A stretch of DNA of 56,357 nucleotides, taken from assembly GCA_000993955.1 (NCBI GenBank), contig LBZW01000006.1, positions 1-56,357 of the forward strand, written 5' to 3'. The notes beneath the pieces are model-generated. The model worked only from the letters and a program-made list of their open reading frames with translations, had not been told where the DNA came from and did not search any database. Source of the stretch: Candidatus Nomurabacteria bacterium GW2011_GWA2_40_9. Lineage in GTDB: Bacteria > Patescibacteriota > Minisyncoccia > Phycocordibacterales > UBA9973. Shown here one piece after another: positions 5,166-23,686 of the stretch (positions are counted from its first letter, which is position 1; each line of letters starts with the position of its first letter). The position numbers were made by a program, and so were the translations under genes.

Positions 5166-5173
5166 AATTAATT

Positions 5174-6199: not shown

Positions 6200-6201
6200 T
6201 C

Positions 6202-6230
6202 TTGCTTTAAGCTATAAGTCAGTATATATA
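6202..6230 (+). promoter_or_regulatory. Possible sigma70-like promoter in the divergent spacer (TTGCTT, 17 nt, TATATA) for the 6240 operon
   Basis: Hexamers read directly at 6202-6207 and 6225-6230. The predicted transcript would be almost leaderless. AT-rich DNA gives many chance matches. Confidence 0.2.
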
Positions 6231-6239
6231 TCTAAGCGA

Positions 6240-7328: not shown

Positions 7329-8037
7329 AATATTAGGTTTTATTGGCGCCAGAGGTGGGTCAAAAGGGATTCAGGATAAAAACATTGCTCCATTTTGTGA
7401 CAAACCTCTCATCGCTTGGACCATGGAAGCAGCACGCAATTCAAAGTACTTAGATCGAACCATTGTTTCAACAGATTCTCCAAAAATATTTGAGATCGCA
7501 AAAAAGTTTGGAGCAGATGTACCTTTTTTACGTCCATCACGTCTTGCAAAAGATCACACTCCTGTTCAGCCTGCCATCTCTCACGCTTTGGAATGGATTA
7601 AAAAAAATGATATGGAAATTTATGATATTGTTGTTCTTTTACAACCCACATCGCCCCTACGAACACATATACACATTGATCACGCTTTAGAATTTTATTT
7701 TAAGAATAGAAAATCTCTGAGAGACACACTGGTTTCTGTAATTAGAGCACCCCAGAAAATGGGATGGCTCTTAAAAGAAACCTCTTTGGGATATGTAAAA
7801 GACTGTTTTGATATTTTGAAAACAAATCAAAGACAATCTTTATCCAATTTTTATTATTCCAATGGCGCTATTTTTATAACCCCCATTTATTCACATAAAC
7901 ACATTCAATTTTATACAAATCGAACACTACCTTATGTAATGCCGCCTGAGGTTTCAATAGATATTGATACCGATAAAGATTTTAAAATAGCAAAAAACTC
8001 TATGGTACGCCTATTAAATTCGAAGAAACACTTTTGA
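7312..8037 (+). CDS. Acylneuraminate (nonulosonate) cytidylyltransferase family, NeuA/LegF/PseF-like
   Basis: GFIGARGGSKGIQDKNI, LLQPTSPLR and SIDIDTDKDF motifs. The ATG at 7312 is chosen because the family N-terminus starts there; the track ORF from 7231 is an upstream extension. Confidence 0.8.
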   Translation: MYQKHKILGFIGARGGSKGIQDKNIAPFCDKPLIAWTMEAARNSKYLDRTIVSTDSPKIFEIAKKFGADVPFLRPSRLAKDHTPVQPAISHALEWIKKNDMEIYDIVVLLQPTSPLRTHIHIDHALEFYFKNRKSLRDTLVSVIRAPQKMGWLLKETSLGYVKDCFDILKTNQRQSLSNFYYSNGAIFITPIYSHKHIQFYTNRTLPYVMPPEVSIDIDTDKDFKIAKNSMVRLLNSKKHF

Positions 8038-10335: not shown

Positions 10336-10356
10336 AGACTTCTAAAGGTTAATCCA

Positions 10357-11643: not shown

Positions 11644-11727
11644 AGGACCTTCTGTATCAATGCAATGGACTATATAAACTATTTTCTCTTGAGTAATAAA
11701 TCCCCCTTTTTATGTGAATTTTAAAAC

Positions 11728-12495
11728 CTATTTAAGAAAGACACTCAAAATATCCAAGTGGTATTCTAATCCCAAACCATTTTTAAATATCCTATTCCCA
11801 CTTAAATCCCTTTCAGTCCAAGATCGTATAGGATCTTTTTGTTTTGGAAGATCAAAAGGGAAAAAAACTCTTTCAAATTTCCATTTCTTTACCAGTGGAT
11901 GTGGCTTTAAAAATTTTGAAATACTCTGTTTAGAAAATAAATTGTAACAACGTTTCCATGGACCCGTATCATGACTATATCGGTATCTCACAAGCCGATC
12001 TACTCCATAATCATTAAATGCACTTATTATAAATATAACCCCTGTTTTTTTACAGACCCTAAAACATTCATTGAAAACTGTTTTAAAATCGTCACACCCT
12101 GAAAGGACCCCCAAGAATGTAACAAAATCAAATTCATGGCTTCCCAATTGATCCATATGGTTCGCATCCCCTAGAATATAAGTGCATTCCTTATTATGCT
12201 GTCTCCCTACCTTGATAAGCTCCTTGTCGATGTCAATACAGGTACACTCCATTTTTGGGAAACATTGCTTTATGTAATAAGCAAACACCCCCCTCCCCCC
12301 CCCCACATCTAATAATTTTTTTGTCTGGAGTTTCCCTTTTAAAAGTTTTTTTATTTTATCTGCAATTAACGTAAATAAAAACTTTGGCTTAGCTCTCTTA
12401 TCAAATTTTATATAAATATGAGTAAAATCAACAACAGAATTATAAAAAGAAAGCTTACCCATCTTTCGATTTTCTCTTAGTTTCGCCACCTTCAT
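11728..12495 (-). CDS. Class I SAM-dependent methyltransferase carrying a G10-A-G6 tract in motif I
   Basis: Motif I LLDVGGGRGVFAYY is followed by an acidic motif II region. The GGGRG glycines are encoded entirely by a homopolymeric G run. Confidence 0.75.
   Translation of the reverse strand: MKVAKLRENRKMGKLSFYNSVVDFTHIYIKFDKRAKPKFLFTLIADKIKKLLKGKLQTKKLLDVGGGRGVFAYYIKQCFPKMECTCIDIDKELIKVGRQHNKECTYILGDANHMDQLGSHEFDFVTFLGVLSGCDDFKTVFNECFRVCKKTGVIFIISAFNDYGVDRLVRYRYSHDTGPWKRCYNLFSKQSISKFLKPHPLVKKWKFERVFFPFDLPKQKDPIRSWTERDLSGNRIFKNGLGLEYHLDILSVFLK
12288..12304 (-). repeat. Homopolymeric tract: C6-T-C10 on the + strand (G10-A-G6 on the coding strand)
   Basis: Counted directly: C at 12288-12293, T at 12294, C at 12295-12304. 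Reads gat gtg ggg ggg ggg agg ggg gtg (DVGGGRGV) on the minus strand. Confidence 0.95.
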
Positions 12496-13460
12496 CTCAG
12501 CCTCTCTTTAAATAAATTATCGATAAGAATCGTATGATCTTGCCTTGGTTGTTCTAATGCCGTAAAAGACTCTTTTTGAATCATATTCGATCGAAACCCA
12601 ATTTCAATACCTAATTTTTGCAATATTTTCAAGGTGTCTTGGTTGTAAGAATTGTTTGGGTGAGCCATAATAATAGATTTTTTACCTAAAAGTTTTACGA
12701 GCAATTCATCATTGAACGTGTATTCTCGTTTTTGCTCATCGAAAGAGAGAGTTCCCATCTGCGTTGGATGTGAATGTCCGTGTAAACCAATGATATGGCC
12801 CTCATCTGACAGTTTTTTTAATTCTGGCATCCCCATCCAAATTTTTTTGAGCGTCTTGTCTACATCAAAATCTTTTTGCATCATCAGTTGACTCATTAAG
12901 AGATGATACTGGAATGATGTAAGCACTTTATCACGTATATATCTGTATTTTCGATCATTATAAGTATAAAAATGAAACTCGTTGAGATAAGAAGAAAAAT
13001 TAAAATGATGAAGTGTGTTTTCAATGGCTTCAAAAAATGGCTGTTTTGAAAGTGCAAAAAAGAAAGCCTTATAGAAATCTTCTATGGTTTTAAAACACGT
13101 ATTACGAAAATATCTATATAATTCAAGATGTTCAATTTCTCCGTTTAGGCTCACTGTATTCACAAACCAAAAAGCGCGCATTCCAAATCTTTGTAAAATA
13201 GGATATGCAATATCATATTGCGACAAAAGACCATGGTCGAACGTAATACAAATATCTGACGAACAAAGACGGCCCTTCCGAAATTTATCTATCCATTCTT
13301 CCGGTTGGATAACTGAAGAACGGATAGATTCAAATAACAATAAACATTGCTCTTGCGTGATAGATCCCTGGCTAGGCGGATGAATTTCATTATGAAAATA
13401 ATGAAACATAATTCCATGAGCATATGGATACGCTGAAAGGTATTTTTTAAACGCCTTCAT
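12492..13460 (-). CDS. Polysaccharide deacetylase (NodB-homology) family protein
   Basis: ICITFDHGLLSQYD (degenerate DD motif), RAFWFV and LHGHSHP motifs. Overlaps the downstream methyltransferase by 4 nt. Confidence 0.65.
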   Translation of the reverse strand: MKAFKKYLSAYPYAHGIMFHYFHNEIHPPSQGSITQEQCLLLFESIRSSVIQPEEWIDKFRKGRLCSSDICITFDHGLLSQYDIAYPILQRFGMRAFWFVNTVSLNGEIEHLELYRYFRNTCFKTIEDFYKAFFFALSKQPFFEAIENTLHHFNFSSYLNEFHFYTYNDRKYRYIRDKVLTSFQYHLLMSQLMMQKDFDVDKTLKKIWMGMPELKKLSDEGHIIGLHGHSHPTQMGTLSFDEQKREYTFNDELLVKLLGKKSIIMAHPNNSYNQDTLKILQKLGIEIGFRSNMIQKESFTALEQPRQDHTILIDNLFKERLR

Positions 13461-14499
13461 TTATAAAATAGGATCATTTTGATTAAAGTTCTTTTTAGCT
13501 GGTATATTTATCATATTCCAAATATTATTGGCTAAGCAATGAGCTTCCGGACGTTTACATATCATATCATCCAACGATAATAATTTTCCTTTAGGAATAT
13601 ACCGTTTAGCATACACGCCCTTGCGTACCATTTTTTTATTTTTAATTTCAACAGGTGTAGGTTTCTTCTTCCCATTTCCAAGAGCGCGCTCAATAATTCG
13701 AATGGATCGCACCATATCTAGAAATTCTTTAGGCTCTAAAGAAGCCTCATGATCTGGGCCAGGAAGATTATTATCTAATGTAAGATGTTTTTCAATAACC
13801 CTAGCTCCTAGCTGGATATTCTGATACACAATGAAGTAGCACAACCTTCTCCTCTAATATTTTTCTGACTTTAGATTTTGAATATATTTTCTTCAATTGC
13901 TTTAAGGTAGGAATCTTTTTTGCCTTCAAATATCCAAAGGCAATAATTTTCAAAGCTCTCTTAATTTCTTTAAGCGTACTCATTCCTGTGGATAAAAGCA
14001 TAGGCTTTTGAGTTCTGGCCGCACATAACAAAAGATGATCGTGCGTTAACTCACCAGATGCCACTTTAATAAGAGGCATCTTAAATTTTTGGACCAAATA
14101 ACTTAAACTTTTGATATCAAAAGGGGTAGATAAAAATAAAATATTTCTCTTGTTACAATAGTTCACTATTTTCTCATGCATAGAAGCAGTCAGTTCTAAT
14201 CGCTTTAACATCTCATATTGAGTTAATGAGGATTCTTTTTTTCTCTGATAAAGTACTTTAGGCGCCTCTGGAACCACCAGATCGTCTGTATAAAAAGATT
14301 GAAATTTAATAGCATCCGCACCTGCTGTTTTTGCAGCATCAATAAGTTTAAACGCCATACTTAATGAACCATTATGGTTCACTCCTGCCTCAGCGATAAT
14401 AAATACTTTGTGTCTCAGAGTTTTTTCTATATAAGGCTGCATAAAAGTTGTATCTAGCTTAAAATCAATTAAACTTCTAGCATTAAAAAATGCTCTCAA
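13461..14499 (-). pseudogene. NeuB/LegI/PseI-type nonulosonic acid synthase, disrupted by an internal deletion plus frame change
   Basis: The N-terminal ORF (13801..14499) has IIAEAGVNHNGS, DAIKFQ and HCVSEYPA. The C-terminal ORF (13461..13844) starts at LGARVIEKHLTLD..GPDHEASLEP and includes the SAF domain. The ~40 residues normally between YPA and LGA, including the SDHT metal-binding motif, are absent, and the two halves are in different frames. Confidence 0.75.
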
Positions 14500-14595: not shown

Positions 14596-15399
14596 ATGCA
14601 GGCCACATACCGAAATAAGAATATCAATGAATATTGGCATGACCGGTGGGATCAGATCCCTATTGATTCGGTAATGAAAAATGAAAACATCTACCCACTG
14701 AAGTACGCAAACATGACCATTCAATCCCAGCAGGGAAGAATTTTAGAACTGGGCTGTGGACCTGGACGATTGCTGAGGTATTATAAAAATCGCGGATATA
14801 ATATTGTGGGAGTAGACTTTGTAGAAGCAATCATTGACAGATTAAAAAAAACAGACCCTGAATTACAGGTAGAAGCTGGAAATGCACAACGTCTTCATTT
14901 TAATGATAAATCTTTTCGTTATGTCTTGGCCTTTGGTATATATCACAATTTATTAGAAGATAGTTTAAAACATGCCATACAAGAAACCTTTCGAATTCTC
15001 GAACCTGGAGGAAAAGTATGTGCTTCTTTTCGAGCCGATAATTTCCAAAAAAAAATAATGGATCGGCTTTCAAAAAAACAAACCACTCATCAGCATGAAA
15101 ACAACACAATAAAAATATTTCATAAATTAAATCTTACTCGGCCTGAATGTATAACACTCTTTAAAGAAGCTGGATTTGAAGTGGAAAATATTTTCCCAGT
15201 AGAAAACATGTCTTTTCTTTATAAATTTTCTTGTTTTCGATCGAAATCTCAAAAATTATTTGATGAACATATCGCCAGAGAAGAAGGATATACACTGTCC
15301 TTTTTAGGTCAGACGATCCAGAAGTTTTTAATGAAACTTTTCCCTAATACATTTTGCAATGTCTATGTGTTAATTGCTAAAAAGAAAGAGATCTCATGA
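14596..15399 (+). CDS. Class I SAM-dependent methyltransferase (positional equivalent of C. jejuni Cj1419/Cj1420)
   Basis: Motif I ILELGCGPGRLL and post-I acidic residue VGVDF. ATGA overlap with the downstream kinase-like gene. Confidence 0.7.
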   Translation: MQATYRNKNINEYWHDRWDQIPIDSVMKNENIYPLKYANMTIQSQQGRILELGCGPGRLLRYYKNRGYNIVGVDFVEAIIDRLKKTDPELQVEAGNAQRLHFNDKSFRYVLAFGIYHNLLEDSLKHAIQETFRILEPGGKVCASFRADNFQKKIMDRLSKKQTTHQHENNTIKIFHKLNLTRPECITLFKEAGFEVENIFPVENMSFLYKFSCFRSKSQKLFDEHIAREEGYTLSFLGQTIQKFLMKLFPNTFCNVYVLIAKKKEIS

Positions 15400-18300
15400 A
15401 TCATTCTTTTCAGGAAGATCAACCAAATAAGATAATCCCATTAAAGGCCATTATCTTAGGTGCAAATCGAGGCATTCGTCGTTTAGACAGTACAAAAAGT
15501 TACCCTCATGCTCTTGGAAAAGGTATCTTTGGAAAATCCGTTTTAGATTGGCAATTATCTTCATTCAAGGCTTGTGGAATTAAAGACATTGTCTTTGTGG
15601 GAGGATATCATTTAGAAAAAATAATCGCAAAATATCCAGGCTTAAACTATTATTTCAATCCTAAGTGGGATTCTTCTGGCTCACTTTTTTCTCTCTTTTG
15701 TGCTCGGGAGGAGTTAACAGAGCCTTGCCTGATCATTTATTCTGACGTTGTTTTTCGACTGAATGTCCTTCAACAATTTATAGCCTGTTCCCAAAATAAT
15801 AAGATTATAATAGGCATCGATCGATCCCCTGATACCGACCTAAGAGAAATGTACAAATCCGAACATATCGAAAGCGTCCAACTGTCACATGAAAATTTAG
15901 TCAAAATAGGCCCACAGATGAATTCCCTTGGAAAAGAAGATGGATTATTCACCGGACTTTGTTTTCTCCCACAACCTATTGTCTCTCAATTAAAAGAAAA
16001 ATTTACCTCCCCCCAATGGATTAACTCACCCCATATTAAAAAATTAAATTTTTCAGATATGTTACAAGAATTACTCAAAGAAGGAAAAAACTTCCAGACA
16101 TATAATATCTCTCAAGACTGGGCTAAGATTCAAAATCCCTTTAGCTTAGCAAGATTTATTTTTGGAACGAAAGCTCAAACCTTGGAAAGATTACGTCAGG
16201 TTATCAAAGGGGCTACCATTCTGGATCAGATTCGCTTTAGTGTGGAGGATTGGACCCACCAGCCAGAAAACATTTTAAATAAAATACAAAAAAAGCTTTC
16301 CTCCAATCAAGTAATTATTCGAAGCAGCGCCTCAAGCGAAGACACATGGGAGTCTTCGAATGCAGGACTTTTTTATAGTGAAAAAACCGTAGACATCAAC
16401 AATAGAGATTTACTACACCAAGGGATTGAACGTGTCATTTCGAGTTTTCAGGCTGCTACGGGCGAACACAACTTAGACCAAGTTTTTGTTCAACCCTATA
16501 TTTCTAATTTAAAAATGTCTGGTGTTATATTCACTAGAGAGCTTGAAAGTGGAGCCCCTTATATCATCATTAATTACTCTTCACATCCTGATAAAACAGA
16601 TGTCATCACTTCTGGATGGAGTGACAATGTTCAAACATTTATTGTATATAAATATACGGACTTTAAAGGTACAGATCCAAATATTATTCAATTACTAAAA
16701 TTAGTTAAAGAATTAGAACAATCCACTAATCTTGATTCCCTTGATATTGAATTTGCTATTGATCAACATGATGACTGTTTTTTATTTCAAGCCAGACCTT
16801 TAGTTTTGCCCTTAATTCGAAAAAAATTTAATGATAAAGATTTTGTTTTAGAAAAAAATTCAATAAAAACATTTATTAATAATCTCATGCAACGTCGTCC
16901 TTATTTATTTGGAGAAAAAACAATTCTCGGGAACATGCCTGATTGGAATCCTGCAGAAATGATTGGCACCGCTCCGAGACCTTTGGCCTTAACGCTGTAT
17001 CAATATCTTATTACAGATAAAGTATGGGGGGAAAGCCGCCAATGTCTGGGATATAAAGATACATACCCAGAACCCCTAATGATCTCATTAGCAGGAAAAC
17101 CTTACATAGATATCCGAACGAGTTTGAACTCTTTTCTCCCAAAGGAACTTTCTCTTGAAGTTTCCGAAAGATTAATTAATTATTATTTAGAACGCTTACA
17201 ACGGTATCCCAATTTTTTTGATAAACTTGAATTTGAAGTCGCCATTACTTGCTTGAGTTTTGATTTTGATAAGCATGCAAGAAATCTTACAGAATCCGGA
17301 TTTCAAAAATCTTCCATTGATGAAATTAAAACATCTGTCTTAAAGTTAACCAACAACATTTTAAATGAAACCTCGATAAACTTAGATCATCAATTACAGC
17401 AACTAGAGATCCTCACCAAAAGAAGAGAGAATATTTTATCTCTCAAAAATATTAGTGCCTCAGAAATACTCAAGGGCATCCATAACCTTTTAGATGATTG
17501 CATACGATATGGAACATTGCCCTTTTCTAACTTAGCCAGGTGTGCCTTCATTTCGACCGCATTTCTAAAATCGCTTCATAGCATCAAAATCTTATCACAA
17601 GCTGACTATGATCTTTTTTTACAATCCATTCCCACCATAGCTTCCGAGATATCTGAAGACATGACACGTATGGTTCATGGAAGCCTATCCATGAAAGATT
17701 TCTTAAATCGTTATGGTCATTTGAGACCTGGGACCTATGACATCCTTTCACCAAGGTATGATGAATCTCCTGAAATTTATTTTCCAAATATTATCCAAAC
17801 CAACTCTCTTCAAGAAAAACGAAACCCCATAAAAACAGAAAGAGATGCAAAGGAAATAATTTTGGAAAAACGCCCTGCACTTAATGCTTTGCTCAAACAA
17901 CATGGAATAACCTGCTCATCTGAACAATTAGTGTATTTTATGGTAAAAAGTATCCAAGCTAGAGAATATGCTAAGTTTGAGTTTACAAAGAATATCAGTG
18001 TCGTCTTACAGAAATTAAGCCAATTTGGAGAAATAAATAATATGTCCATAGATGATATGTCATTTACTTCTATATATTATTTACTTTCACTTTCAACCAG
18101 TAATCCTCCAAGTGATATAAAAAGAGATCTTAAGATGCATGCAAGACGGCATATGAAACAATATGCCCTTACCCAATCAATACAATTGCCATCACTCATT
18201 TATTCATCTGATGATTTAGATTATTTTTACCACAAGGAAATGCAGCCAAATTTTATAACATCAAAGAAAGTCACCGCAGACCTCTTAAAGTTAGATAAAC

Positions 18301-18560
18301 TGACTCACGAAAAATTGGATCTTACAGACAAGATTATATGTATTGAAAATGCTGATCCTGGTTATGACTGGATTTTTGGATATAAGATCGCTGGTCTTGT
18401 GACTAAGTATGGAGGCATTGCATCACACATGTCCATTAGAGCAGCAGAATTTGGCTTACCTGCGGCCATTGGTTGTGGAGATGTCATTTTCCAAAAAATA
18501 TTGCATTCCACAAAAATAGAGTTAAATTGTGCTACTCGGCAAATTCATTTTGTGAAATAA
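15396..18560 (+). CDS. Fusion: N-terminal nucleotidyltransferase domain plus PEP-utilising/PPDK-like ATP-dependent kinase (Cj1418-like L-glutamine kinase candidate)
   Basis: Residues ~10-250 form an NTP-transferase fold (AIILGANRGIRR...YSDVVF). The ATP-grasp/PPDK N-domain motif VIIRSSASSEDTWESSNAGLF follows. The C-terminal swivel phosphohistidine motif is LVTKYGGIASHMSIRAAEFGLPAAIGCG. Confidence 0.65.
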   Translation: MNHSFQEDQPNKIIPLKAIILGANRGIRRLDSTKSYPHALGKGIFGKSVLDWQLSSFKACGIKDIVFVGGYHLEKIIAKYPGLNYYFNPKWDSSGSLFSLFCAREELTEPCLIIYSDVVFRLNVLQQFIACSQNNKIIIGIDRSPDTDLREMYKSEHIESVQLSHENLVKIGPQMNSLGKEDGLFTGLCFLPQPIVSQLKEKFTSPQWINSPHIKKLNFSDMLQELLKEGKNFQTYNISQDWAKIQNPFSLARFIFGTKAQTLERLRQVIKGATILDQIRFSVEDWTHQPENILNKIQKKLSSNQVIIRSSASSEDTWESSNAGLFYSEKTVDINNRDLLHQGIERVISSFQAATGEHNLDQVFVQPYISNLKMSGVIFTRELESGAPYIIINYSSHPDKTDVITSGWSDNVQTFIVYKYTDFKGTDPNIIQLLKLVKELEQSTNLDSLDIEFAIDQHDDCFLFQARPLVLPLIRKKFNDKDFVLEKNSIKTFINNLMQRRPYLFGEKTILGNMPDWNPAEMIGTAPRPLALTLYQYLITDKVWGESRQCLGYKDTYPEPLMISLAGKPYIDIRTSLNSFLPKELSLEVSERLINYYLERLQRYPNFFDKLEFEVAITCLSFDFDKHARNLTESGFQKSSIDEIKTSVLKLTNNILNETSINLDHQLQQLEILTKRRENILSLKNISASEILKGIHNLLDDCIRYGTLPFSNLARCAFISTAFLKSLHSIKILSQADYDLFLQSIPTIASEISEDMTRMVHGSLSMKDFLNRYGHLRPGTYDILSPRYDESPEIYFPNIIQTNSLQEKRNPIKTERDAKEIILEKRPALNALLKQHGITCSSEQLVYFMVKSIQAREYAKFEFTKNISVVLQKLSQFGEINNMSIDDMSFTSIYYLLSLSTSNPPSDIKRDLKMHARRHMKQYALTQSIQLPSLIYSSDDLDYFYHKEMQPNFITSKKVTADLLKLDKLTHEKLDLTDKIICIENADPGYDWIFGYKIAGLVTKYGGIASHMSIRAAEFGLPAAIGCGDVIFQKILHSTKIELNCATRQIHFVK

Positions 18561-18562
18561 AT

Positions 18563-19222
18563 ATGAAAATAGGCATTTCCATGCGAACAGCTCCCATTCT
18601 ACAAACTCGTGAAAATCACGATATGATTAGTCATGATTGGCTAAATTTTTTACACTCCTTGCAATTTGAATGGGTACTTATTCCAAATCTTAAAAAACAA
18701 CCTCTTAAAGATAACATACAAGCATTAATATTGAGTAATGGGAATGACATCGGAATGTTTAATAATCGAGATAAAAGTTTTTTATCTGATGTTTCTTCTG
18801 AAAGAGATGAAACAGAGCTTCAGCTTCTTCAGCATGCCATTAAAAATAAACTACCTGTTCTTGGAGTGTGCCGTGGTATGCAATTTATTAATGGGTATTT
18901 TAATGGAGAACTTAAAAAAATCCATTCGCCTATGGAACATGCTGGATGTCACCATCAAATTGATATTATTGACAGCCGGTTTACCCCCGCGTTAGGCAAA
19001 GAACTCACAGTTAATTCTTTTCACAAATTTGGTGTCTTCACAGATCATATTTCAAATAATTTAAGAACATTTGCAGTCCATCGGCAACATAAAATCTGTG
19101 AAGGCCTTTATCATCCGGAGTTGCCTATAGTAGGAATTCAATGGCATCCAGAACGTCAAAGTTCAGATGGAGAAAAGGTTAAATTATTCATTAATAACTT
19201 TCTACGAGGTCATTTTTTTTGA
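18563..19222 (+). CDS. Class I glutamine amidotransferase / peptidase C26 gamma-glutamyl hydrolase (Cj1417-like)
   Basis: Nucleophile elbow LPVLGVCRGMQFING and His motif IVGIQWHPE. ATG at 18563 lies 2 nt after the upstream stop; the track ORF from 18473 is an out-of-context extension. Confidence 0.7.
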   Translation: MKIGISMRTAPILQTRENHDMISHDWLNFLHSLQFEWVLIPNLKKQPLKDNIQALILSNGNDIGMFNNRDKSFLSDVSSERDETELQLLQHAIKNKLPVLGVCRGMQFINGYFNGELKKIHSPMEHAGCHHQIDIIDSRFTPALGKELTVNSFHKFGVFTDHISNNLRTFAVHRQHKICEGLYHPELPIVGIQWHPERQSSDGEKVKLFINNFLRGHFF

Positions 19223-20022
19223 AACAACCCATAACACCTAAACTTATTATTTTAGCAGCCGGTGAAGGCAGCAGGTTAAAACCTTACACTCTTGATAAGC
19301 CCAAGTGTCTTGTTCCATTACATGGCAAAAGTATTCTCAGTTGGCAAGTTAGTTTGGCTCATCAATTTAATATTTATGACATTATTGTAGTTAAAGGTTA
19401 TAAACACGAAAAAATCCAGGAAAACCACATTCGAAGCTATATTAATACAGCTTATGATCACACAAATATGGTTGAAACACTCTGGTGCGCCCAAGAAGAG
19501 TTTAAAGAAGATATTATTATCTCGTATGGAGATATCTTATATAATGCAGATGTACTCTCAGCCTTAATACAGTCGCCTCATGATATTTCCGTTGTTATTG
19601 ACAAAGACTGGTTGCAGTACTGGAAGCAACGTTTTATAAATCCCTTAGAGGACGCTGAAAGTTTACATATAGATAGTTCAGGTAAAATACTAGAGATTGG
19701 TCAAAAAGTTAGCGATTACACAAAAATTCAAGGTCAATTTATTGGATTAATGCGATTTAAAAATAATGGCATTAAGGCTCTTAAAAATTTTTATATGCTA
19801 GCTAAAGAAGAGACAGGTTGTGGAAAAAAAATTTTTAGAACCCCTCGTCCTTTTCACAAGATTTTTATGACTGATTTTTTACAAGGCATGATTGATTTTG
19901 GATATCCTATACTTGAAGTCCCCATAAAAAGGAATTGGTTAGAAATTGATTCACCTTCAGACTATGATTTAGCTAAACAAATAACAATATCAGAAACTTC
20001 ACAGTTAAAATTTTTAAGCTGA
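19219..20022 (+). CDS. Nucleotidyltransferase (Cj1416-like CTP:phosphoglutamine cytidylyltransferase candidate; LicC-like fold)
   Basis: LIILAAGEGSRLKPYTLDKPKCLVPL motif. TTG start in a TTGA overlap with the upstream stop. Confidence 0.65.
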   Translation: MKQPITPKLIILAAGEGSRLKPYTLDKPKCLVPLHGKSILSWQVSLAHQFNIYDIIVVKGYKHEKIQENHIRSYINTAYDHTNMVETLWCAQEEFKEDIIISYGDILYNADVLSALIQSPHDISVVIDKDWLQYWKQRFINPLEDAESLHIDSSGKILEIGQKVSDYTKIQGQFIGLMRFKNNGIKALKNFYMLAKEETGCGKKIFRTPRPFHKIFMTDFLQGMIDFGYPILEVPIKRNWLEIDSPSDYDLAKQITISETSQLKFLS

Positions 20023-20051
20023 AGGGCTTCTGATCTCTAAGGTAGGCACCT

Positions 20052-20567
20052 ATGGTTTTATGGTTAATCGGAATGTCAGGCGCTGGAAAGACAGTAATTG
20101 GACGTGAAGTGTATGTTCAATTAAAAAAAACATATAAAAATATCATTTTTTTCGATGGGGATACTATTCGAGAACTCATGGGAAATGATTTAGGTTATAA
20201 CATTTCGGATAGGAAAAAAAATGCAAATAGAATATGTCGGCTTTGTCATTTCTTTGACGCACAAGGTATCCATGTCATCTGTGGTATCTTGTCAATTTTT
20301 CATGAATCTCAAAAATGGAATAAAGAAAACATTAAAGATTATTACGAGGTATATTTAAAAACTTCCCTTAAAATATTACAAATGAGAGATTCAAAAAATC
20401 TTTATAGGCAATCACAAAAAGGTGAGACACACCATGTTGTAGGCATGGACATTAAATTTCCCGAACCTTTAAACCCAGATCTTATCGTACACAATGACGG
20501 CGCAGACTCTGTAGAAGATATAGCTCAAACCATTATATCTAAACTCATTGAAAGAAAACTTATTTAG
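20052..20567 (+). CDS. APS-kinase-fold nucleotide 3'-kinase (CysC/Cj1415-like; cytidine diphosphoramidate kinase candidate)
   Basis: P-loop LIGMSGAGKT, FFDGDTIR, DRKKNANR and the LYRQSQKGE..VVGMD..FPEP layout of adenylylsulfate kinases. Confidence 0.7.
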   Translation: MVLWLIGMSGAGKTVIGREVYVQLKKTYKNIIFFDGDTIRELMGNDLGYNISDRKKNANRICRLCHFFDAQGIHVICGILSIFHESQKWNKENIKDYYEVYLKTSLKILQMRDSKNLYRQSQKGETHHVVGMDIKFPEPLNPDLIVHNDGADSVEDIAQTIISKLIERKLI

Positions 20568-20572
20568 ATAAA

Positions 20573-21268
20573 ATGAATTACGAATACCACCATAAAAATA
20601 CTTTAGAAAACCCCTGCAATTACATGTACACACCATTTTATGGTGATTCATTTCTAAAAAGCTATTTTAGAAATCGGGAAAACTCTATAGCCATTCTTCA
20701 AGATAGAACGCATCTAAAAACTATCCAAATAGTAGATATTATAAAGAAAGAAAATATAGAGGCCCTCTTCTATCTTCTTAATGGTAACACGAAGGATAAA
20801 ACTAGAAAAACCCTCTCTCAATTGTTAAAGAATAGTCAAGAATGGCTTAAGATCCTAGAAAAAAAAGAGCGTGTAAATACACTTGAAATATTCGAGAATT
20901 TATTGATAGCCATTCTTCTGGGAAATAAAAAATCGCATAAAAATATTTGTTTTTATTTAAATATTTTCTTAAAAAGATATGAACTCTCTAAGCATCTTTT
21001 TACACATTATAATGGCTCTACTTTTAAAAAAAGTGGGGGAGACTATACGTTATTATCAAGCTATGTTTACTTTTCGCTCCTATTGAGCTTGGCTTACTTT
21101 AGATTAAAGAACATTAAGTATTTAAATACTACCCTAAAAATAAATGATATGCTTTGTTCAAATTTAAACAACCTCCAGAACCATTTTGATAGATCCGCAT
21201 TTTTTATATCATTAATATTGGAAATACACCTTGTAAAATTACTTATGGTCAAAAAGGGGCTGTCATGA
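20573..21268 (+). CDS. Hypothetical protein (231 aa), probably alpha-helical, no family recognised
   Basis: ORF tightly packed in the operon: 5-nt spacer upstream, ATGA overlap downstream. Confidence 0.5.
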   Translation: MNYEYHHKNTLENPCNYMYTPFYGDSFLKSYFRNRENSIAILQDRTHLKTIQIVDIIKKENIEALFYLLNGNTKDKTRKTLSQLLKNSQEWLKILEKKERVNTLEIFENLLIAILLGNKKSHKNICFYLNIFLKRYELSKHLFTHYNGSTFKKSGGDYTLLSSYVYFSLLLSLAYFRLKNIKYLNTTLKINDMLCSNLNNLQNHFDRSAFFISLILEIHLVKLLMVKKGLS

Positions 21269-22014
21269 TTCTTCAAGATATCGGCATGGTACTTGTCTCA
21301 TCATCCCGTTCAAAAGCTTACTTACAAATACTCTTGAAGCATGATATTAAGCCTTCACACGTAATTATGATTGACCACCAAAGGGAAACTCTTTTGCCAG
21401 GGCAGAGAATTTCTGATGTATCACAATCACAAGAAATAAAAGATTCTTCAGTCCCCAAAAAGAAGTCTCAAGACTATTTTAACCCTGAGGAACAACTTAT
21501 AGAAACTTTGACCAAACACCACATCTCACATGAAATAATTTATAGCCAAGACGTGAACAATCCACACGTTATAAGCGCTTTAAAAAATAGGCGGGAAAAA
21601 TATTTCATCTATTCAGGATTCGGAGGCGGAATTTTGAAATCAGATATTTTGAATATTGGCAAAGATTTTATCCATATCCATTCGGGATTAATTCCATCCT
21701 ACCGTGGGAGCACAACGATTTATTATAGCATATTGAATGAAAATAAATGCACTGCAACAGCTTTTTTTCTAAACGAACACCTTGACAGTGGAGACATTAT
21801 TAAAATAAAAGAATTCCCTAAACCAAAAAATGGAGAAACAATCGACTTTATTTATGACGCACACATTCGATCTCTCTTGCTTTTAGAGGTACTACAAGAA
21901 TATATAAAAATCGGCGCCTTTAAAAGAAGGGCCCAAAGCGCTCAACAGGGAGAAACTTATTTTATAATTCATCCTGTTTTAAAACACTTGGCCATTTTAA
22001 CATGCAAAAAATAA
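21265..22014 (+). CDS. Formyltransferase-fold protein (Formyl_trans_N-like)
   Basis: IHIHSGLIPSYRGST resembles the HxSLLPxxRG motif of formyltransferases, followed by LDSGDII (substrate-loop Asp). Confidence 0.5.
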   Translation: MILQDIGMVLVSSSRSKAYLQILLKHDIKPSHVIMIDHQRETLLPGQRISDVSQSQEIKDSSVPKKKSQDYFNPEEQLIETLTKHHISHEIIYSQDVNNPHVISALKNRREKYFIYSGFGGGILKSDILNIGKDFIHIHSGLIPSYRGSTTIYYSILNENKCTATAFFLNEHLDSGDIIKIKEFPKPKNGETIDFIYDAHIRSLLLLEVLQEYIKIGAFKRRAQSAQQGETYFIIHPVLKHLAILTCKK

Positions 22015-23033
22015 AATTTATATTTCAATCTACACCCTTTCGATCAGGAGCTACCTTACTGTCAAGAATGTTAAATGCTCATCCGAAAATAGGCTCTCTA
22101 AATGACGATGTAAAATTTTTCCGTTTTTGCTATAATCGATACCTGCCTCTAAATAAAAAAAATGTGCACCGAATGTTAGAAGAGGAGGCGTATCGTCTTT
22201 TACACCGATTTAATATAAAACTTGATGTCAATAAATGCTTTGAAGTCATTAAAAAATATCCTCTGAAACATGACATTATTTATAAAACTATTTTATTACA
22301 CCTTTTTAAGAATCGCCCTAAAGACTTTATCCTAGATAAAGAAACTCTCGCTTGGACTAAAATCCCATTATTTCTTGAATGGTTTCCTAATTCCAAGGCT
22401 TTATTGATTATTCGAGATTTAAGAGACGTTGTTGTCTCATTTAAGAAGTTAACTTTTGCACCTGGGAATGATTACCTCATTGCTTTATTTAATGTAATAG
22501 ATGCTATGGACACTTTTTTAGAACTTCAGCATAAATTTCCTCACCGATTTTATGGCGTTCGTTATGAAATGCTAAAATCTAATCCAAAATCAGAAATGAA
22601 AAAAATATCCCACTTTTTAGGAATTGATTATAGTGCTAATATGTTAAATGAAAAAAAATGGGTGGAGTTTAATGGGGAAAAGTGGATAAATAAAAAACAT
22701 TCTACCTTTTACACCAGTGGTGACTATCAAAATCCAGTGGGTCGCTGGCGACGATTAATCACAGAAGAAGAATTATTCCTATGTGAGTGGATAGGAAAAA
22801 AACAAATGCAAAACTTTGGAATTAAATTTGAAGGATCAAAAATTTCTCAAAAAACATTTAACAGGGCTATACAAATGCTAACCAGCAGTAATGTATTACG
22901 TGAATGCTTTCAACACTGGTGTGAGACTGGCAAAGGGATGGAACGTTATCCATTGGATGCTACGAACCCAAAATATTGGGATAGAGACGTTTTATACAGC
23001 CCCCAAGCCTTTGGGCTGGAGTCATCCAAATAA
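22002..23033 (+). CDS. Sulfotransferase-fold protein
   Basis: 5'-phosphosulfate-binding-loop-like STPFRSGATLLSRML and 3'-phosphate-binding motif LLIIRDLRDVVVSFKK. Confidence 0.7.
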   Translation: MQKIKFIFQSTPFRSGATLLSRMLNAHPKIGSLNDDVKFFRFCYNRYLPLNKKNVHRMLEEEAYRLLHRFNIKLDVNKCFEVIKKYPLKHDIIYKTILLHLFKNRPKDFILDKETLAWTKIPLFLEWFPNSKALLIIRDLRDVVVSFKKLTFAPGNDYLIALFNVIDAMDTFLELQHKFPHRFYGVRYEMLKSNPKSEMKKISHFLGIDYSANMLNEKKWVEFNGEKWINKKHSTFYTSGDYQNPVGRWRRLITEEELFLCEWIGKKQMQNFGIKFEGSKISQKTFNRAIQMLTSSNVLRECFQHWCETGKGMERYPLDATNPKYWDRDVLYSPQAFGLESSK

Positions 23034-23050: not shown

Positions 23051-23686
23051 ATGCATAAGAGAAAAAAAATAGTCATCTTAGGAGGCGGCAGCCATGCGGA
23101 AGTTTTGCTCAGCATACTACAGTTACATACAATAACCATCCTGGGATATACAGATCATATCAAAAAGAGGAATCTGCCCATAAAATACTTAGGGAATGAT
23201 CTCTCAGTTGGCTACCATTCACCAAAAGATATTCAACTTGTTAATGGTTTAGGATCAACGGACTTACCTCTTCAACGCCAATTCATATATGAAAAATTTA
23301 AAAAACTTGGCTATACATTTGCTTCCGTAATTCATCCTAGTGCTATTTTAGCAAAAGATGTAAAACTCTCTGAAGGCGTTCAGCTCATGACCGCTGTTGT
23401 TATTAATGTTAATAGTCAGATAGGAGAAAACTCAATTATCAATACGGGAGCTTTAATAGATCATCATTGTTGTATTGGAAAACATTCTCATATTGCACCG
23501 GGTGTTACTCTTTCTGGTGGTATACACATTGGAAACTGTTGTCTCATTGGTGCTGGCACAACTATTATACAAAATATTTCTATTGGGAACCAAGTAGTCA
23601 TTGGAGCAGGTTCGGTCGTAATTAAAAATGTTTTATCTTGTATCAGGGCAGCTGGCGTACCTGCAAGAACTATTTCAGCGGCATGA
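23051..23686 (+). CDS. NeuD/PglD/LegH-family hexapeptide-repeat sugar N/O-acetyltransferase
   Basis: N-terminal Rossmann-like IVILGGGSHAEVL. C-terminal left-handed beta-helix repeats (IGENSIINTGALIDHHCCIGKHSHIAPGVTLSGGIHIGN...). Confidence 0.8.
   Translation: MHKRKKIVILGGGSHAEVLLSILQLHTITILGYTDHIKKRNLPIKYLGNDLSVGYHSPKDIQLVNGLGSTDLPLQRQFIYEKFKKLGYTFASVIHPSAILAKDVKLSEGVQLMTAVVINVNSQIGENSIINTGALIDHHCCIGKHSHIAPGVTLSGGIHIGNCCLIGAGTTIIQNISIGNQVVIGAGSVVIKNVLSCIRAAGVPARTISAA

What the first reader, a model, noticed from the sequence alone, without database searches (positions are those of the whole stretch)
14596..20567. Complete Campylobacter-type phosphoramidate (MeOPN donor) pathway in conserved gene order
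Five consecutive, tightly coupled + strand genes carry the following folds. (a) A class I methyltransferase. (b) A PEP-utilising/PPDK-like kinase, with ATP-grasp motif IIRSSASSEDTWESSNAGLF and swivel-His motif GGIASHMSIRAAEFGLPA. (c) A class I amidotransferase/C26 hydrolase (GVCRGMQ, IQWHPE). (d) A nucleotidyltransferase (AAGEGSRLKPYT). (e) An APS-kinase-fold protein (GMSGAGKT). This is the same set and order as C. jejuni cj1420/19c, cj1418c, cj1417c, cj1416c and cj1415c. Those products were shown biochemically to be L-glutamine kinase, gamma-glutamyl-CDP-amidate hydrolase, CTP:phosphoglutamine cytidylyltransferase and cytidine diphosphoramidate 3'-kinase. Together they make 3'-phospho-cytidine-5'-diphosphoramidate, the donor for O-methyl phosphoramidate on capsule sugars. 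To my knowledge this chemistry has only been characterised in Campylobacter. Here it sits in a very different glycan island, next to nonulosonate genes, a sulfotransferase fold and GT-C enzymes, so the acceptor glycan and transferase are probably new.
Basis: partly seen in the sequence, partly recalled or inferred. Interest (0 to 1): 0.85.

Follow-up and report, generated by a model that had tools for sequence, protein, structure and literature searches.

The report
Phosphoramidate sugar-donor operon in CPR bacterium
A tiny uncultured groundwater bacterium carries intact versions of the four enzymes Campylobacter uses to make an activated phosphorus-nitrogen group for decorating surface sugars. 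The same gene set occurs in hundreds of other bacteria and archaea, so it is a real but not unique find.

Summary
Five tightly packed + strand genes (14596-20567) encode a class I methyltransferase, a 1054-aa PEP-utilising kinase, a C26 amidohydrolase, a nucleotidyltransferase and an APS-kinase-fold protein. All quoted motifs are present.

I fetched Campylobacter reference loci and compared directly. Four proteins are homologues of Cj1418, Cj1417, Cj1416 and Cj1415 (36-38 %, 29 %, 38 % and 37 % identity). The catalytic His737 of Cj1418 aligns with His1011, and the APS-kinase-fold protein carries the Cj1415-type motif rather than the CysC one. The donor pathway to 3'-phospho-CDP-amidate is therefore well supported.

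Corrections:
- The kinase carries an unreported N-terminal, degenerate nucleotidyltransferase-like domain.
- The methyltransferase is not of the Cj1419/1420 family.
- No Cj1421/1422-type (DUF2972) transferase is present.
- The operon runs on to 25509. It includes a conserved unknown + formyltransferase-like pair and a sulfotransferase-fold protein.

The gene set is not rare: at least 594 matches in species-representative genomes and 1563 representative clusters. Across 80 loci the 3'-kinase co-occurs with sulfotransferase-fold genes, while kinase-less loci carry TagF-like transferases. This suggests two delivery routes and names the sulfotransferase-fold protein as candidate transferase here. 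That step is inferred.

Verdict: new variant of a known kind, moderate interest.

The parts
14596..15399 (+). Class I SAM methyltransferase of the 'MT19' subfamily. It is the first gene of the operon.
   Evidence: Methyltransf_25/11. Homologues at 52-54 % identity sit in the phosphoramidate clusters of a Peregrinibacteria locus and an Omnitrophota locus, and the family HMM hits 14 loci. It is not the Cj1419/1420 family: 25 % over 96 aa, E 0.05. The C. jejuni enzyme scores 276 bits on the MT7 HMM and 17 on the MT19 HMM.
15396..16142 (+). N-terminal nucleotidyltransferase-like domain fused to the kinase. It is a divergent paralogue of Cj1416 and probably non-canonical.
   Evidence: NTP_transf_3. 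22 % identity to Cj1416 over 248 aa, E 2e-20. 28 % identity to the stand-alone NT of the window. The GxG(T/S)RL...PK signature is not conserved across the 32 fused domains.
16143..18560 (+). L-glutamine kinase domain (Cj1418 homologue). It is predicted to make N5-phospho-L-glutamine.
   Evidence: NF004508 892.8 bits, cutoff 501. 36 % identity over 808 positions to Cj1418, E 3.5e-165. The swivel His1011 aligns with Cj1418 His737.
18560..19222 (+). C26 / class I amidotransferase-fold hydrolase (Cj1417-like). It is predicted to cleave CDP-L-glutamine to CDP-amidate and glutamate.
   Evidence: Peptidase_C26 and GATase. Best NCBIfam family NF045546, 101.6 bits, below the cutoff of 250. 29 % identity over 209 aa to Cj1417, E 1e-20. 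Cys (GVCRGMQ) and His/Glu (WHPE) are present. A homologue lies immediately downstream of the kinase in 72 of 80 loci.
19219..20022 (+). CTP:phosphoglutamine cytidylyltransferase (Cj1416 homologue).
   Evidence: 38 % identity over 254 aa to Cj1416, E 3e-58. It is the best match to Cj1416 in the window. The canonical ILAAGxGxRL...PKC signature is present.
20052..20567 (+). Cytidine diphosphoramidate 3'-kinase (Cj1415 homologue, APS-kinase fold).
   Evidence: NF004041 179.5 bits, cutoff 127. TIGR00455 123.2 bits, below its cutoff of 138.7. 37 % identity to Cj1415, E 4e-40. phmmer 120-125 bits to Campylobacter kinases versus 75 bits to E. coli CysC. The CysC 'FISP' motif is replaced by ILSIF, as in Campylobacter and all kinase-linked homologues shown.
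20573..21268 (+). Conserved all-helical protein of unknown function ('u231'). It is the obligate partner of the next gene.
   Evidence: No Pfam or NCBIfam hit. The family HMM finds it in 14 loci, and in 13 of the 23 loci that have the formyltransferase-like gene versus 1 of 57 without. The order kinase-u231-FmtL is the same in Cohnella, Kangiellaceae, Planctomycetales and Desulfovibrio loci.
21265..22014 (+). Formyltransferase-fold protein ('FmtL').
   Evidence: Formyl_trans_N, E 4e-8. Present in 23 of 80 loci. Family-conserved HxHPGxLPxYRGS and DxG motifs. Nearly exclusive with the Campylobacter-type methyltransferase: 1 of 23 versus 17 of 57, p 0.016.
22002..23033 (+). Sulfotransferase-fold protein. 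It is the candidate phosphoramidate transferase, using the PAPS-like donor (inferred).
   Evidence: Sulfotransfer_3, E 1e-21. The nearest solved proteins are TPST1/2, with both PAPS-binding motifs aligned: FRSGATLL with PRSGTTLM, and IIRDLRDVVVS with MVRDGRASVHS. It hits the HMM of the sulfotransferase-like genes found beside glutamine-kinase clusters at 1e-13. Such genes occur in 13 of 36 loci with the 3'-kinase and 2 of 44 without.
23051..23686 (+). NeuD/PglD-type sugar N-acetyltransferase.
   Evidence: TIGR03570 200.6 bits, cutoff 160.8.
23683..25509 (+). Last gene of the run, about 608 aa, unknown function.
   Evidence: No Pfam hit. No homologue in the 80 loci. Not detectably TagF-like (hhalign 6 %) or c76-like. 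The likely ATG at 23683 overlaps the NeuD stop by 4 nt.
4092..14499 (.). Adjacent legionaminic-acid-type nonulosonate gene set, a possible source of the acceptor sugar.
   Evidence: Epimerase/dehydratase, CBS-NTP transferase, CMP-sugar synthetase, UDP-GlcNAc 2-epimerase, DegT aminotransferase, deacetylase, methyltransferase and a split NeuB. The same gene families flank the phosphoramidate genes in L032, L034, L037, L038, L040 and L081.

Best explanation
The region is the biosynthetic core of a surface-glycan phosphoramidate modification system. It sits on the 56-kb contig of Candidatus Nomurabacteria bacterium GW2011_GWA2_40_9.

**Steps supported by homology to biochemically characterised Campylobacter enzymes**
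1. The C-terminal 805 residues of ORF 15396-18560 use ATP and a swivelling His1011 to phosphorylate the amide N of L-glutamine.
2. The stand-alone nucleotidyltransferase (19219-20022) condenses phosphoglutamine with CTP to give CDP-L-glutamine.
3. The C26 hydrolase (18560-19222) removes glutamate and leaves cytidine diphosphoramidate.
4. The APS-kinase-fold enzyme (20052-20567) phosphorylates the 3'-OH to give 3'-phospho-cytidine-5'-diphosphoramidate, a PAPS-like donor.

**Inferred steps**
- The sulfotransferase-fold protein (22002-23033), in the same tightly packed gene run, transfers the phosphoramidyl group from this donor to a glycan hydroxyl and releases 3'-phospho-CMP.
- The upstream methyltransferase, of a different subfamily from Cj1419/1420, may O-methylate the group.
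- The conserved u231 + formyltransferase-like pair performs a further modification. It is either additional or an alternative, and its nature is unknown.
- The acceptor is probably a legionaminic-acid-type nonulosonate glycan made by the flanking genes.
- The N-terminal NT-like domain of the kinase has lost the canonical nucleotide-binding signature. It more likely acts as a scaffold or sensor, for example by pairing with the stand-alone NT, than as a second cytidylyltransferase.
For: **Family scores**
- The Campylobacter proteins themselves hit the same models. Cj1417 scores 328.5 bits on NF045546, Cj1415 scores 292.9 on NF004041, and the Cj1418 C-terminus matches NF004508.

**Direct comparison with Campylobacter loci**
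- The reference loci are L083 (found with a published cj1416 primer) and L084 (C. jejuni CP010476).
- Identities are 36-38 %, 29 %, 38 % and 37 %, with E from 1e-20 to 3.5e-165.
- His737 aligns with His1011.
- The Cj1415-type motif replaces CysC 'FISP'.

**Conservation of the gene set**
- Kinase-C26-NT occur together in 72 and 71 of 80 loci across Bacteria and Archaea.
- Nine loci physically fuse the APS-kinase-fold domain to the glutamine kinase.

**No sulfate activation nearby**
- No CysD/CysN homologue is in the window, and only 1 of 87 loci has one.
- No Sat-type signature was found.

**Transferase inference**
- Sulfotransferase-like genes track the 3'-kinase: 13 of 36 versus 2 of 44, p 4e-4. 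They occur in 5 of the 9 fusion loci.
- The window protein keeps both 3'-phosphonucleotide-binding motifs.

**Acceptor inference**
- The cluster is repeatedly embedded in nonulosonate operons.
- In C. lari it lies in the flagellin glycosylation island.
Against: - No enzyme here has been assayed.
- The C26 protein is below the equivalog cutoff, at 29 % identity.
- The methyltransferase is not the Campylobacter family, so the final group need not be O-methyl phosphoramidate.
- No DUF2972-type transferase is present.
- The similarity of the sulfotransferase-like family to the Campylobacter transferases is only suggestive: 13 bits and hhalign 35-40 %.
- Co-occurrence statistics are not corrected for phylogeny, and they rest on my own crude ORF calls.
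- The adjacent neuB is split and lacks about 33 profile positions. The acceptor pathway may therefore be broken, or the assembly may be wrong.
- The rest of the genome was not available, so I could not exclude PAPS synthesis elsewhere.
Confidence: 0.8

Rival explanations
1. Mixed pathway. The kinase, NT and C26 make only CDP-amidate. The APS-kinase-fold protein and the sulfotransferase-fold protein form an ordinary PAPS-dependent sulfation module for the same glycan.
For: The two proteins have the APS_kinase and Sulfotransfer_3 folds, and the PAPS-binding motifs are intact. The nearest solved relatives of the sulfotransferase-fold protein are genuine PAPS enzymes.
Against: - The kinase fails the true APS-kinase equivalog, passes the Cj1415-type model, and shares the Cj1415 motif change at the APS-binding 'FISP' site.
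- No ATP sulfurylase of either type is in the window, and almost none is in the related loci.
- In 9 loci this kinase domain is fused to the glutamine kinase, and 5 of those loci have the sulfotransferase-like gene.
Confidence: 0.1
2. A different CDP-linked head group. The PEP-utilising enzyme phosphorylates a substrate other than glutamine. The cluster would then attach a phospho-amino-acid-type group, as in the C. difficile FtaA-D system, rather than phosphoramidate.
For: At 36-38 % identity to Cj1418, a change of specificity is possible. CDP-threonine chemistry with a CDP-X phosphotransferase exists. The extra NT-like domain and the u231/FmtL genes have no Campylobacter counterpart.
Against: - A gamma-glutamyl-type C26 hydrolase is retained immediately downstream in 72 of 80 loci. 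It makes sense only if a glutamine-derived intermediate has to be cleaved.
- The kinase passes the equivalog cutoff by a wide margin.
- JGI labels homologues that are 35-40 % identical to the window protein as glutamine kinase.
Confidence: 0.06
3. A decaying or partly non-functional island. The donor genes are intact, but the glycan they served is no longer made.
For: neuB is split with an internal loss. Several fragments of glycan genes lie further along the contig: 37068-37346, 38819-39100 and a truncated RmlD at 41728-42303.
Against: All ten genes from 14596 to 25509 are full length with overlapping or near-abutting junctions. The neuB break could be an assembly error in a metagenome bin.
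Confidence: 0.04

Closest known systems
Campylobacter jejuni MeOPN biosynthesis genes cj1415c-cj1418c (with cj1419c/1420c methyltransferases and cj1421c/1422c transferases)
   Same: - The four donor-pathway enzymes are homologous, and each is the best match of its partner in the window.
- The transcription order methyltransferase, kinase, hydrolase, NT, 3'-kinase is the same.
- The catalytic His and the kinase motif are conserved.
   Different: - The kinase carries an N-terminal NT-like domain.
- The methyltransferase belongs to another subfamily.
- There is no DUF8374/DUF2972 transferase.
- There are extra conserved genes: u231, a formyltransferase-like gene and a sulfotransferase-fold gene.
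- The cluster is embedded in a nonulosonate island, not a kps capsule locus.
- The host is a CPR bacterium.
Predicted MeOPN-like cluster of Cobalt Borg (archaeal extrachromosomal element; bioRxiv 10.1101/2024.11.05.622173)
   Same: A non-Campylobacter cluster with Cj1416-, Cj1417- and Cj1418-like proteins, predicted to decorate a cell surface.
   Different: The Borg assignment was made from structure prediction. No 3'-kinase is reported. One of its NTs is fused to a PEP mutase, not to the glutamine kinase.
PAPS / sulfotransferase system (APS kinase CysC plus TPST-like sulfotransferases)
   Same: A 3'-phosphorylated nucleotide donor made by an APS-kinase-fold enzyme. A transferase candidate with both PAPS-binding motifs.
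   Different: The donor is predicted to be 3'-phospho-CDP-amidate, not PAPS. The kinase has the Cj1415-type substitution at the APS site. No ATP sulfurylase is nearby.
Clostridioides difficile flagellin Type A glycan pathway FtaA-D (CDP-threonine donor, FtaD phosphotransferase)
   Same: A CDP-activated non-sugar head group is transferred to a glycan as a post-glycosylation modification. It is a precedent for the TagF-like route seen in the kinase-less relatives.
   Different: It has no glutamine kinase, no P-N bond and no 3'-phosphorylation. The window has no clear TagF-like gene in the operon.
PEP synthase / pyruvate phosphate dikinase / rifampin phosphotransferase
   Same: ATP-grasp plus swivelling phosphohistidine domain architecture.
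   Different: Only 28-57 bits on those models and solved structures, versus 893 bits on the Cj1418 model.

Membership tests
L-glutamine kinase (Cj1418, EC 2.7.3.13; NCBIfam NF004508) | Full-length similarity above the curated equivalog cutoff, and to Cj1418 itself | tested here: met
   892.8 bits against a cutoff of 501. 36 % identity over 808 positions, E 3.5e-165, covering Cj1418 residues 1-776. The Cj1418 C-terminus hits the same model.
L-glutamine kinase (Cj1418, EC 2.7.3.13; NCBIfam NF004508) | Swivel-domain catalytic histidine (His737 in Cj1418; its catalytic role is from my recollection of Taylor et al. 2018) | tested here: met
   GGANSH(737)M aligns with GGIASH(1011)M. The His is invariant in 30 family members.
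L-glutamine kinase (Cj1418, EC 2.7.3.13; NCBIfam NF004508) | [quoted passage not shown] | not testable with these tools
   Needs an enzyme assay or 31P NMR.
CTP:phosphoglutamine cytidylyltransferase (Cj1416) | Full-length homology to Cj1416, and the canonical NT signature | tested here: met
   ORF 19219-20022: 38 % identity over 254 aa, E 3e-58. It is the best window match to Cj1416. ILAAGEGSRL...PKC is present. No dedicated NCBIfam model exists.
CTP:phosphoglutamine cytidylyltransferase (Cj1416) | The same features, tested on the fused N-terminal domain 15396-16142 | tested here: not met
   Only 22 % identity. The GxG(T/S)RL...PK signature is not conserved in the 32 fused domains.
gamma-glutamyl-CDP-amidate hydrolase (Cj1417; NCBIfam NF045546) | Score above the curated equivalog cutoff | tested here: not met
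   101.6 bits against a cutoff of 250, although it is the best family by about 46 bits. The Campylobacter protein scores 328.5.
gamma-glutamyl-CDP-amidate hydrolase (Cj1417; NCBIfam NF045546) | Cys-His-Glu triad, and a position immediately downstream of the glutamine kinase | tested here: met
   GVCRGMQ and WHPE. 29 % identity over 209 aa to Cj1417, E 1e-20. Same position in 72 of 80 loci.
Cytidine diphosphoramidate 3'-kinase (Cj1415; NCBIfam NF004041) | Closer to the Cj1415 clade than to true APS kinases | tested here: met
   NF004041 179.5 bits (cutoff 127). TIGR00455 123.2 bits (cutoff 138.7). Cj1415 shows the same pattern. phmmer 120-125 bits to Campylobacter kinases versus 75 bits to E. 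coli CysC. The shared replacement of FISP is shown.
Cytidine diphosphoramidate 3'-kinase (Cj1415; NCBIfam NF004041) | Substrate preference for CDP-amidate over APS | not testable with these tools
   Needs an enzyme assay.
MeOPN-associated methyltransferases Cj1419/Cj1420 ('MT7' family here) | Sequence membership of the family found next to Cj1418 in Campylobacter | tested here: not met
   25 % identity over 96 aa, E 0.05 to the C. jejuni enzyme. The window methyltransferase hits the MT7 HMM at only 1e-4, against 6e-133 for MT19. Campylobacter methyltransferases score 266-294 bits on MT7.
MeOPN transferases Cj1421/Cj1422 (DUF8374 + DUF2972) | A homologue of the DUF2972 protein in the window | tested here: not met
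   The best blastp hit of the C. jejuni 537-aa protein to any window ORF has E 0.19. No DUF2972 hit appeared among the 49 window ORFs scanned against Pfam.
PAPS-type sulfotransferase fold (Pfam Sulfotransfer_3; TPST-like), ORF 22002-23033 | Fold, plus the 5'-phosphosulfate-loop and 3'-phosphate-binding motifs | tested here: met
   Sulfotransfer_3, 78 bits. Both motifs align with TPST1.
PAPS-type sulfotransferase fold (Pfam Sulfotransfer_3; TPST-like), ORF 22002-23033 | Use of PAPS as donor | not testable with these tools
   Context argues for 3'-phospho-CDP-amidate instead, but only an assay can decide.

The most novel reading that the evidence does not exclude
Phosphoramidate decoration of glycans is a widespread modification, not a Campylobacter-specific one. 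It would have two interchangeable delivery chemistries.

1. Clusters with the Cj1415-type 3'-kinase hand 3'-phospho-CDP-amidate to sulfotransferase-fold enzymes, which act as phosphoramidyl transferases. The DUF2972 transferases of Campylobacter may be divergent members of this group.
2. Clusters without the kinase hand CDP-amidate directly to TagF-like phosphotransferases. These clusters usually carry the NT-like fusion.

The window carries the first route. There the acceptor would be a legionaminic-acid-type nonulosonate on the surface of a CPR bacterium. The u231 + formyltransferase-like pair would replace O-methylation with a different, still unknown, derivatisation of the P-N group.
Probability: 0.3. 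Interest if true: 0.8.

Novelty: new variant of a known kind. Interest (0 to 1): 0.55.

Why it matters
- **Scope of the chemistry.** The P-N bond-forming glutamine kinase is still described as Campylobacter-specific in a 2022 review. The enzymes that transfer and methylate the phosphoramidate had not been worked out biochemically as of 2025.
- **This locus.** It shows an intact donor pathway in a genome-reduced CPR bacterium.
- **The comparison it prompted.** Hundreds of bacterial and archaeal genomes share the core genes and differ in the downstream genes. Those differences give concrete, testable candidates for the missing transfer step: sulfotransferase-fold enzymes when the 3'-kinase is present, and TagF-like enzymes when it is absent. 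They also point to a possible new acceptor class, the nonulosonic acids.
- **Annotation.** Current annotation hides these clusters. Homologues are named 'PEP-utilizing enzyme', 'phosphocholine cytidylyltransferase family protein' and 'adenylyl-sulfate kinase'.

Tried and rejected
**Searches that did not deliver**
- The original Raushel papers (PMC5629633, PMC5938751, PMC5938747, PMC6643271, PMC6643276) are not held. Mechanistic details of Cj1415-1418 therefore rest on reviews, on later papers and on my own recollection.
- The genome-contig scan returned no Campylobacter among its best 80 loci.
- A protein search with the 115-aa Cj1418 C-terminus returned only fragments.
- Names for ten 775-780-aa homologues were uninformative.
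- The H. muridarum Cj1416-like gene (L088) has no kinase next to it and was dropped.

**Ideas tested and not supported**
- ORF 23683-25509 as a TagF-like transferase: hhalign 6 %.
- The same ORF as a relative of the roughly 680-aa 'c76' proteins that follow the cluster in L034, L040 and L081: no signal.
- The 346-aa protein next to the kinase in C. lari and C. bilis as a sulfotransferase-like protein: no signal.

**Left inconclusive**
- Homology between the sulfotransferase-like family and the Campylobacter DUF2972 transferases. The evidence is 13.4 bits and E 2.6e-5 in a 16-sequence search, hhalign 35-40 %, and a shared 'VRDPIsrL' motif. Pfam sees only DUF2972 in the C. jejuni protein.

**Uninformative computations**
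- The AlphaFold2 model of u231 from a single sequence had mean pLDDT 37, so no fold search was run.
- The promoter and terminator scan was at chance level overall. Its two best + strand promoter-like sites do lie in the 96-bp gap upstream of 14596.

Full report
**What is there**

The window is the whole 56,357-bp contig that carries a protein named for Candidatus Nomurabacteria bacterium GW2011_GWA2_40_9, a CPR/Patescibacteria genome bin (P0001, 100 % identity). G+C content is 0.28-0.37 along the window, with no shift at the operon.

The five + strand ORFs of the finding are real and tightly coupled.
- 14596-15399, class I methyltransferase.
- 15396-18560, a 1054-aa protein with PPDK_N and the PEP-utilizers swivel domain.
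- 18560-19222, Peptidase_C26/GATase.
- 19219-20022, nucleotidyltransferase.
- 20052-20567, APS_kinase fold.

Two additions:
- The first ~250 residues of the 1054-aa protein are an extra nucleotidyltransferase-like domain.
- The co-directional, overlapping gene run continues to 25509. It adds a protein of unknown function (20573-21268), a formyltransferase-fold protein (21265-22014), a sulfotransferase-fold protein (22002-23033), a NeuD-type acetyltransferase (23051-23686) and an unknown protein of about 608 aa.

The two best + strand promoter-like sites of the region lie in the 96-bp gap upstream of 14596. The scan as a whole is at chance level.

**Getting a Campylobacter reference**

No Campylobacter locus was among the best 80 genome hits. 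I therefore searched metagenome contigs with the published cj1416 mutagenesis primer CS-350 (van Alphen 2014).
- The single hit, L083, encodes the C-terminus of a Cj1418-type kinase, then proteins of 200, 253 and 170 aa, followed by KpsC.
- These proteins score 328.5 bits on NF045546 (gamma-glutamyl-CDP-amidate hydrolase, cutoff 250) and 292.9 bits on NF004041. The kinase fragment matches NF004508.
- This shows what those three NCBIfam models represent.
- A search with the 253-aa protein returned Campylobacter proteins, some named CTP:phosphoglutamine or phosphoramidate cytidylyltransferase.
- That search also led to complete loci of C. jejuni CP010476 (L084), C. lari (L085), C. bilis (L087) and C. 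subantarcticus (L090).

**Is it the Campylobacter pathway?**

*Kinase*
- NF004508 scores 892.8 bits (cutoff 501). Every PEP synthase, PPDK or rifampin phosphotransferase model scores at most 57 bits, and solved structures at most 35 bits.
- Against the 779-aa C. jejuni Cj1418 it is 36 % identical over 808 positions, E 3.5e-165, end to end. A global alignment gives 38 %.
- The swivel histidine in GGANSH(737)M aligns with GGIASH(1011)M.

*Stand-alone nucleotidyltransferase*
- It is 38 % identical to Cj1416 over 254 aa, E 3e-58.
- It keeps the canonical signature.

*APS-kinase-fold protein*
- It is 37 % identical to Cj1415, E 4e-40.
- It passes NF004041 and fails the genuine APS-kinase equivalog TIGR00455, as Cj1415 does.
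- It scores 120-125 phmmer bits against Campylobacter kinases and 75 against E. coli CysC.
- The 'FISP' segment of CysC is replaced by ILSIF in the window, and by TISMF in the three Campylobacter kinases. Similar S-x-F variants occur in every glutamine-kinase-linked homologue shown.

*C26 protein*
- This is the weakest link. Its best family is the Cj1417 model, but at 101.6 bits against a cutoff of 250. It is 29 % identical to Cj1417, E 1e-20.
- It keeps the Cys and His/Glu motifs.
- It occupies the position directly after the kinase, the same position as in 72 of 80 loci.

I conclude that the four-step route is encoded here. The route runs from Gln, ATP and CTP to 3'-phospho-cytidine-5'-diphosphoramidate. 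The chemistry of each step is known from Campylobacter work (summarised, and from my own recollection of the Raushel papers). It is inferred here by homology.

**What does not match Campylobacter**
- Campylobacter methyltransferases next to Cj1418 form one family, called MT7 here, scoring 266-294 bits. The window methyltransferase belongs to another class I subfamily, MT19. It is 25 % identical over 96 aa, E 0.05, to the C. jejuni enzyme.
- MT19 is nevertheless a genuine partner of such clusters. Homologues at 52-54 % identity sit in Peregrinibacteria and Omnitrophota loci, and the family HMM hits 14 loci.
- The Campylobacter MeOPN-transferase type (DUF8374 + DUF2972) has no homologue in the window (best E 0.19).

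**How common is the system?**
- The two conserved kinase peptides matched at least 599 stretches in the species-representative genome set.
- A full HMMER scan of 1.84 billion representative proteins gave 1563 clusters at E up to 1e-30.
- The best 80 loci span many bacterial phyla and several archaeal lineages, including cultured strains. Examples are Haloferax elongans, Cohnella, Clostridium guangxiense, Legionella septentrionalis, Magnetovibrio, Marinobacter and Paenalcaligenes. Other CPR/DPANN bins are also present.
- Fourteen plasmids carry a homologue, annotated only as 'PEP-utilizing enzyme'.
- JGI already labels some homologues 'glutamine kinase'.
- A Borg preprint proposed a MeOPN-like cluster in an archaeal extrachromosomal element.

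The chemistry has been characterised only in Campylobacter, but the genes are far from confined to it.

**Variation around the core**

I called ORFs in the 80 loci and clustered them. I then built HMMs for the recurrent partners and named the partner families by Pfam.
- The 3'-kinase is present in 36 of 80 loci. In nine of these it is a domain fused to the glutamine kinase.
- The NT-like fusion is present in 32 of 80 loci and is strongly anti-correlated with the 3'-kinase (4 of 32 versus 32 of 48, p 2e-6). The window is one of four loci with both.
- NT-fused loci are enriched for a TagF-like CDP-alcohol phosphotransferase (15 of 32 versus 5 of 48, p 4e-4).
- Loci with the 3'-kinase are enriched for a sulfotransferase-like family (13 of 36 versus 2 of 44, p 4e-4; 5 of the 9 fusion loci) and for the MT7 methyltransferase (15 of 36 versus 3 of 44).
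- The window's sulfotransferase-fold protein hits the HMM of that family at 1e-13.
- Its nearest solved relatives are tyrosylprotein sulfotransferases. Both the 5'-phosphosulfate loop and the 3'-phosphate-binding motif are aligned.
- No CysD/CysN homologue or Sat-type signature is in the window. Among the 87 loci, one has CysD/CysN and none has the Sat signature. The Sat motifs come from my own knowledge.

My reading, which is inference:
- The 3'-phosphate added by the Cj1415-type kinase is the handle for a sulfotransferase-fold phosphoramidyl transferase, in the way PAPS serves sulfotransferases.
- Kinase-less clusters use CDP-amidate directly with a TagF-like enzyme. C. difficile FtaD is a precedent for a CDP-X phosphotransferase.

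The statistics are not phylogenetically corrected, and they rest on crude gene calls.

**Are the Campylobacter transferases of the same fold?**

This is suggestive only. The three DUF2972 proteins share 'LVRDPI(S/A)RLKTG', and two share 'LSGH(A/G)AM'. These align with the 3'-phosphate-binding and 5'-phosphosulfate motif regions of the sulfotransferase-like HMM (13.4 bits). hhalign gives 35-40 % probability, P 3e-4.

**The other conserved genes**
- u231 and the formyltransferase-fold protein form a tight pair (13 of 23 versus 1 of 57).
- They appear in the same order after the 3'-kinase in distant taxa.
- They are almost never found together with MT7 (1 of 23 versus 17 of 57, p 0.016).
- The formyltransferase-like family conserves HxHPGxLPxYRGS and DxG. 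This resembles the formyltransferase catalytic motifs, with His in place of Asn (my comparison from memory).
- Their role is unknown. An alternative derivatisation of the phosphoramidate is one possibility.

**The fused NT-like domain**

It has lost the GxG(T/S)RL...PK signature that the stand-alone NT family keeps. A catalytic duplicate is therefore unlikely. A scaffold or sensor role is my guess.

**Acceptor**

The operon is flanked by genes of a legionaminic-acid-type nonulosonate pathway and contains a NeuD-type acetyltransferase.
- NeuB or NeuC lie within 10 kb of the kinase in 12 of 79 other loci.
- In L032, L034, L037, L038, L040 and L081/L082 the phosphoramidate genes are embedded in such operons.
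- In C. lari they sit in the flagellin glycosylation island rather than the capsule locus.

A nonulosonate-containing glycan is therefore a reasonable candidate acceptor, but nothing more. The window's neuB is split, with about 33 profile positions missing.

**Verdict**

The finding is correct in substance: this is a complete Campylobacter-type phosphoramidate donor pathway. It is a new variant of a known kind. The variant features are the fused kinase, a different methyltransferase, a different candidate transferase and extra conserved genes, in a CPR host.

It is not unique. Its main value is as one well-preserved example of a widespread, under-annotated system. The downstream diversity of that system offers testable candidates for the still unresolved transfer step.

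Noticed in passing
window 13461-14499 (- strand): The NeuB (nonulosonate synthase) gene is split into two ORFs in different frames. Pfam positions 1-155 and 189-241 are present and about 33 positions between them are missing. It is either a pseudogene or an assembly error.
   Followed up: partly
window 15396-16142; fused domains in 31 other loci, e.g. L002, L003, L053: The nucleotidyltransferase-like domain fused to the glutamine kinase lacks the canonical GxG(T/S)RL...PK signature. Its presence is strongly anti-correlated with the 3'-kinase gene (4 of 32 versus 32 of 48). Its function is unexplained.
   Followed up: partly
L027, L033, L042, L047, L073, L075, L077, L078, L080 (positions about 9400-12300): In these loci, mostly Acidobacteriota/Bryobacterales and Proteobacteria bins, the APS-kinase-fold domain is fused to the N-terminus of the glutamine kinase. 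The fusion ties this kinase subfamily to the phosphoramidate pathway.
   Followed up: partly
L085 4970-10759 (Campylobacter lari): In C. lari the cluster (3'-kinase, two methyltransferases, glutamine kinase, hydrolase, NT) lies among Maf (DUF2920) and CMP-sugar synthetase genes of the flagellin glycosylation island, not in the capsule locus. No DUF2972 gene is nearby. C. lari gave no MeOPN NMR signal in van Alphen 2014.
   Followed up: no
window 20573-22014; L017, L035, L040, L041, L058 and others: The unknown helical protein and the formyltransferase-like protein form a conserved two-gene module, which may be a single polypeptide in L056 and L060 (489 and 452 aa; not checked). It is nearly mutually exclusive with the Campylobacter-type methyltransferase.
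   Followed up: partly
window 36089-39100 and 41728-42303 (- strand): Several short ORFs look like fragments or duplicates of neighbouring glycan genes. ORF 38819-39100 resembles part of the CMP-sugar synthetase-like ORF 36089-37027. ORF 37068-37346 resembles the N-terminus of the GT2 gene at 39837-40742. ORF 41728-42303 is a truncated RmlD.
   Followed up: no
window 32390-34207 (+) and 34248-36086 (-): These two proteins of about 610 aa have no Pfam hit. They show a weak match to the C-terminal part of the TagF-like HMM built from the related loci (E 9e-5 and 0.011 in a search of the window's roughly 57 called ORFs). They may be distant CDP-alcohol phosphotransferase-like or GT-B enzymes.
   Followed up: no
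L081 14150-18617 and L082 (metagenome contigs carrying P0080): A nonulosonate operon is followed by glutamine kinase, hydrolase, NT, methyltransferase and a sulfotransferase-like gene. After these come two APS-kinase-fold genes separated by a pyruvate-kinase-like gene. The duplicated kinase and the PK-like gene are unexplained.
   Followed up: no
L084 10001-10576 (C. jejuni CP010476.1): In this complete C. jejuni genome the Cj1416 homologue is only 191 aa. The family HMM matches it in two pieces (HMM positions 3-93 and 158-242), so it has an internal deletion. The MeOPN pathway may be inactive in that strain.
   Followed up: no
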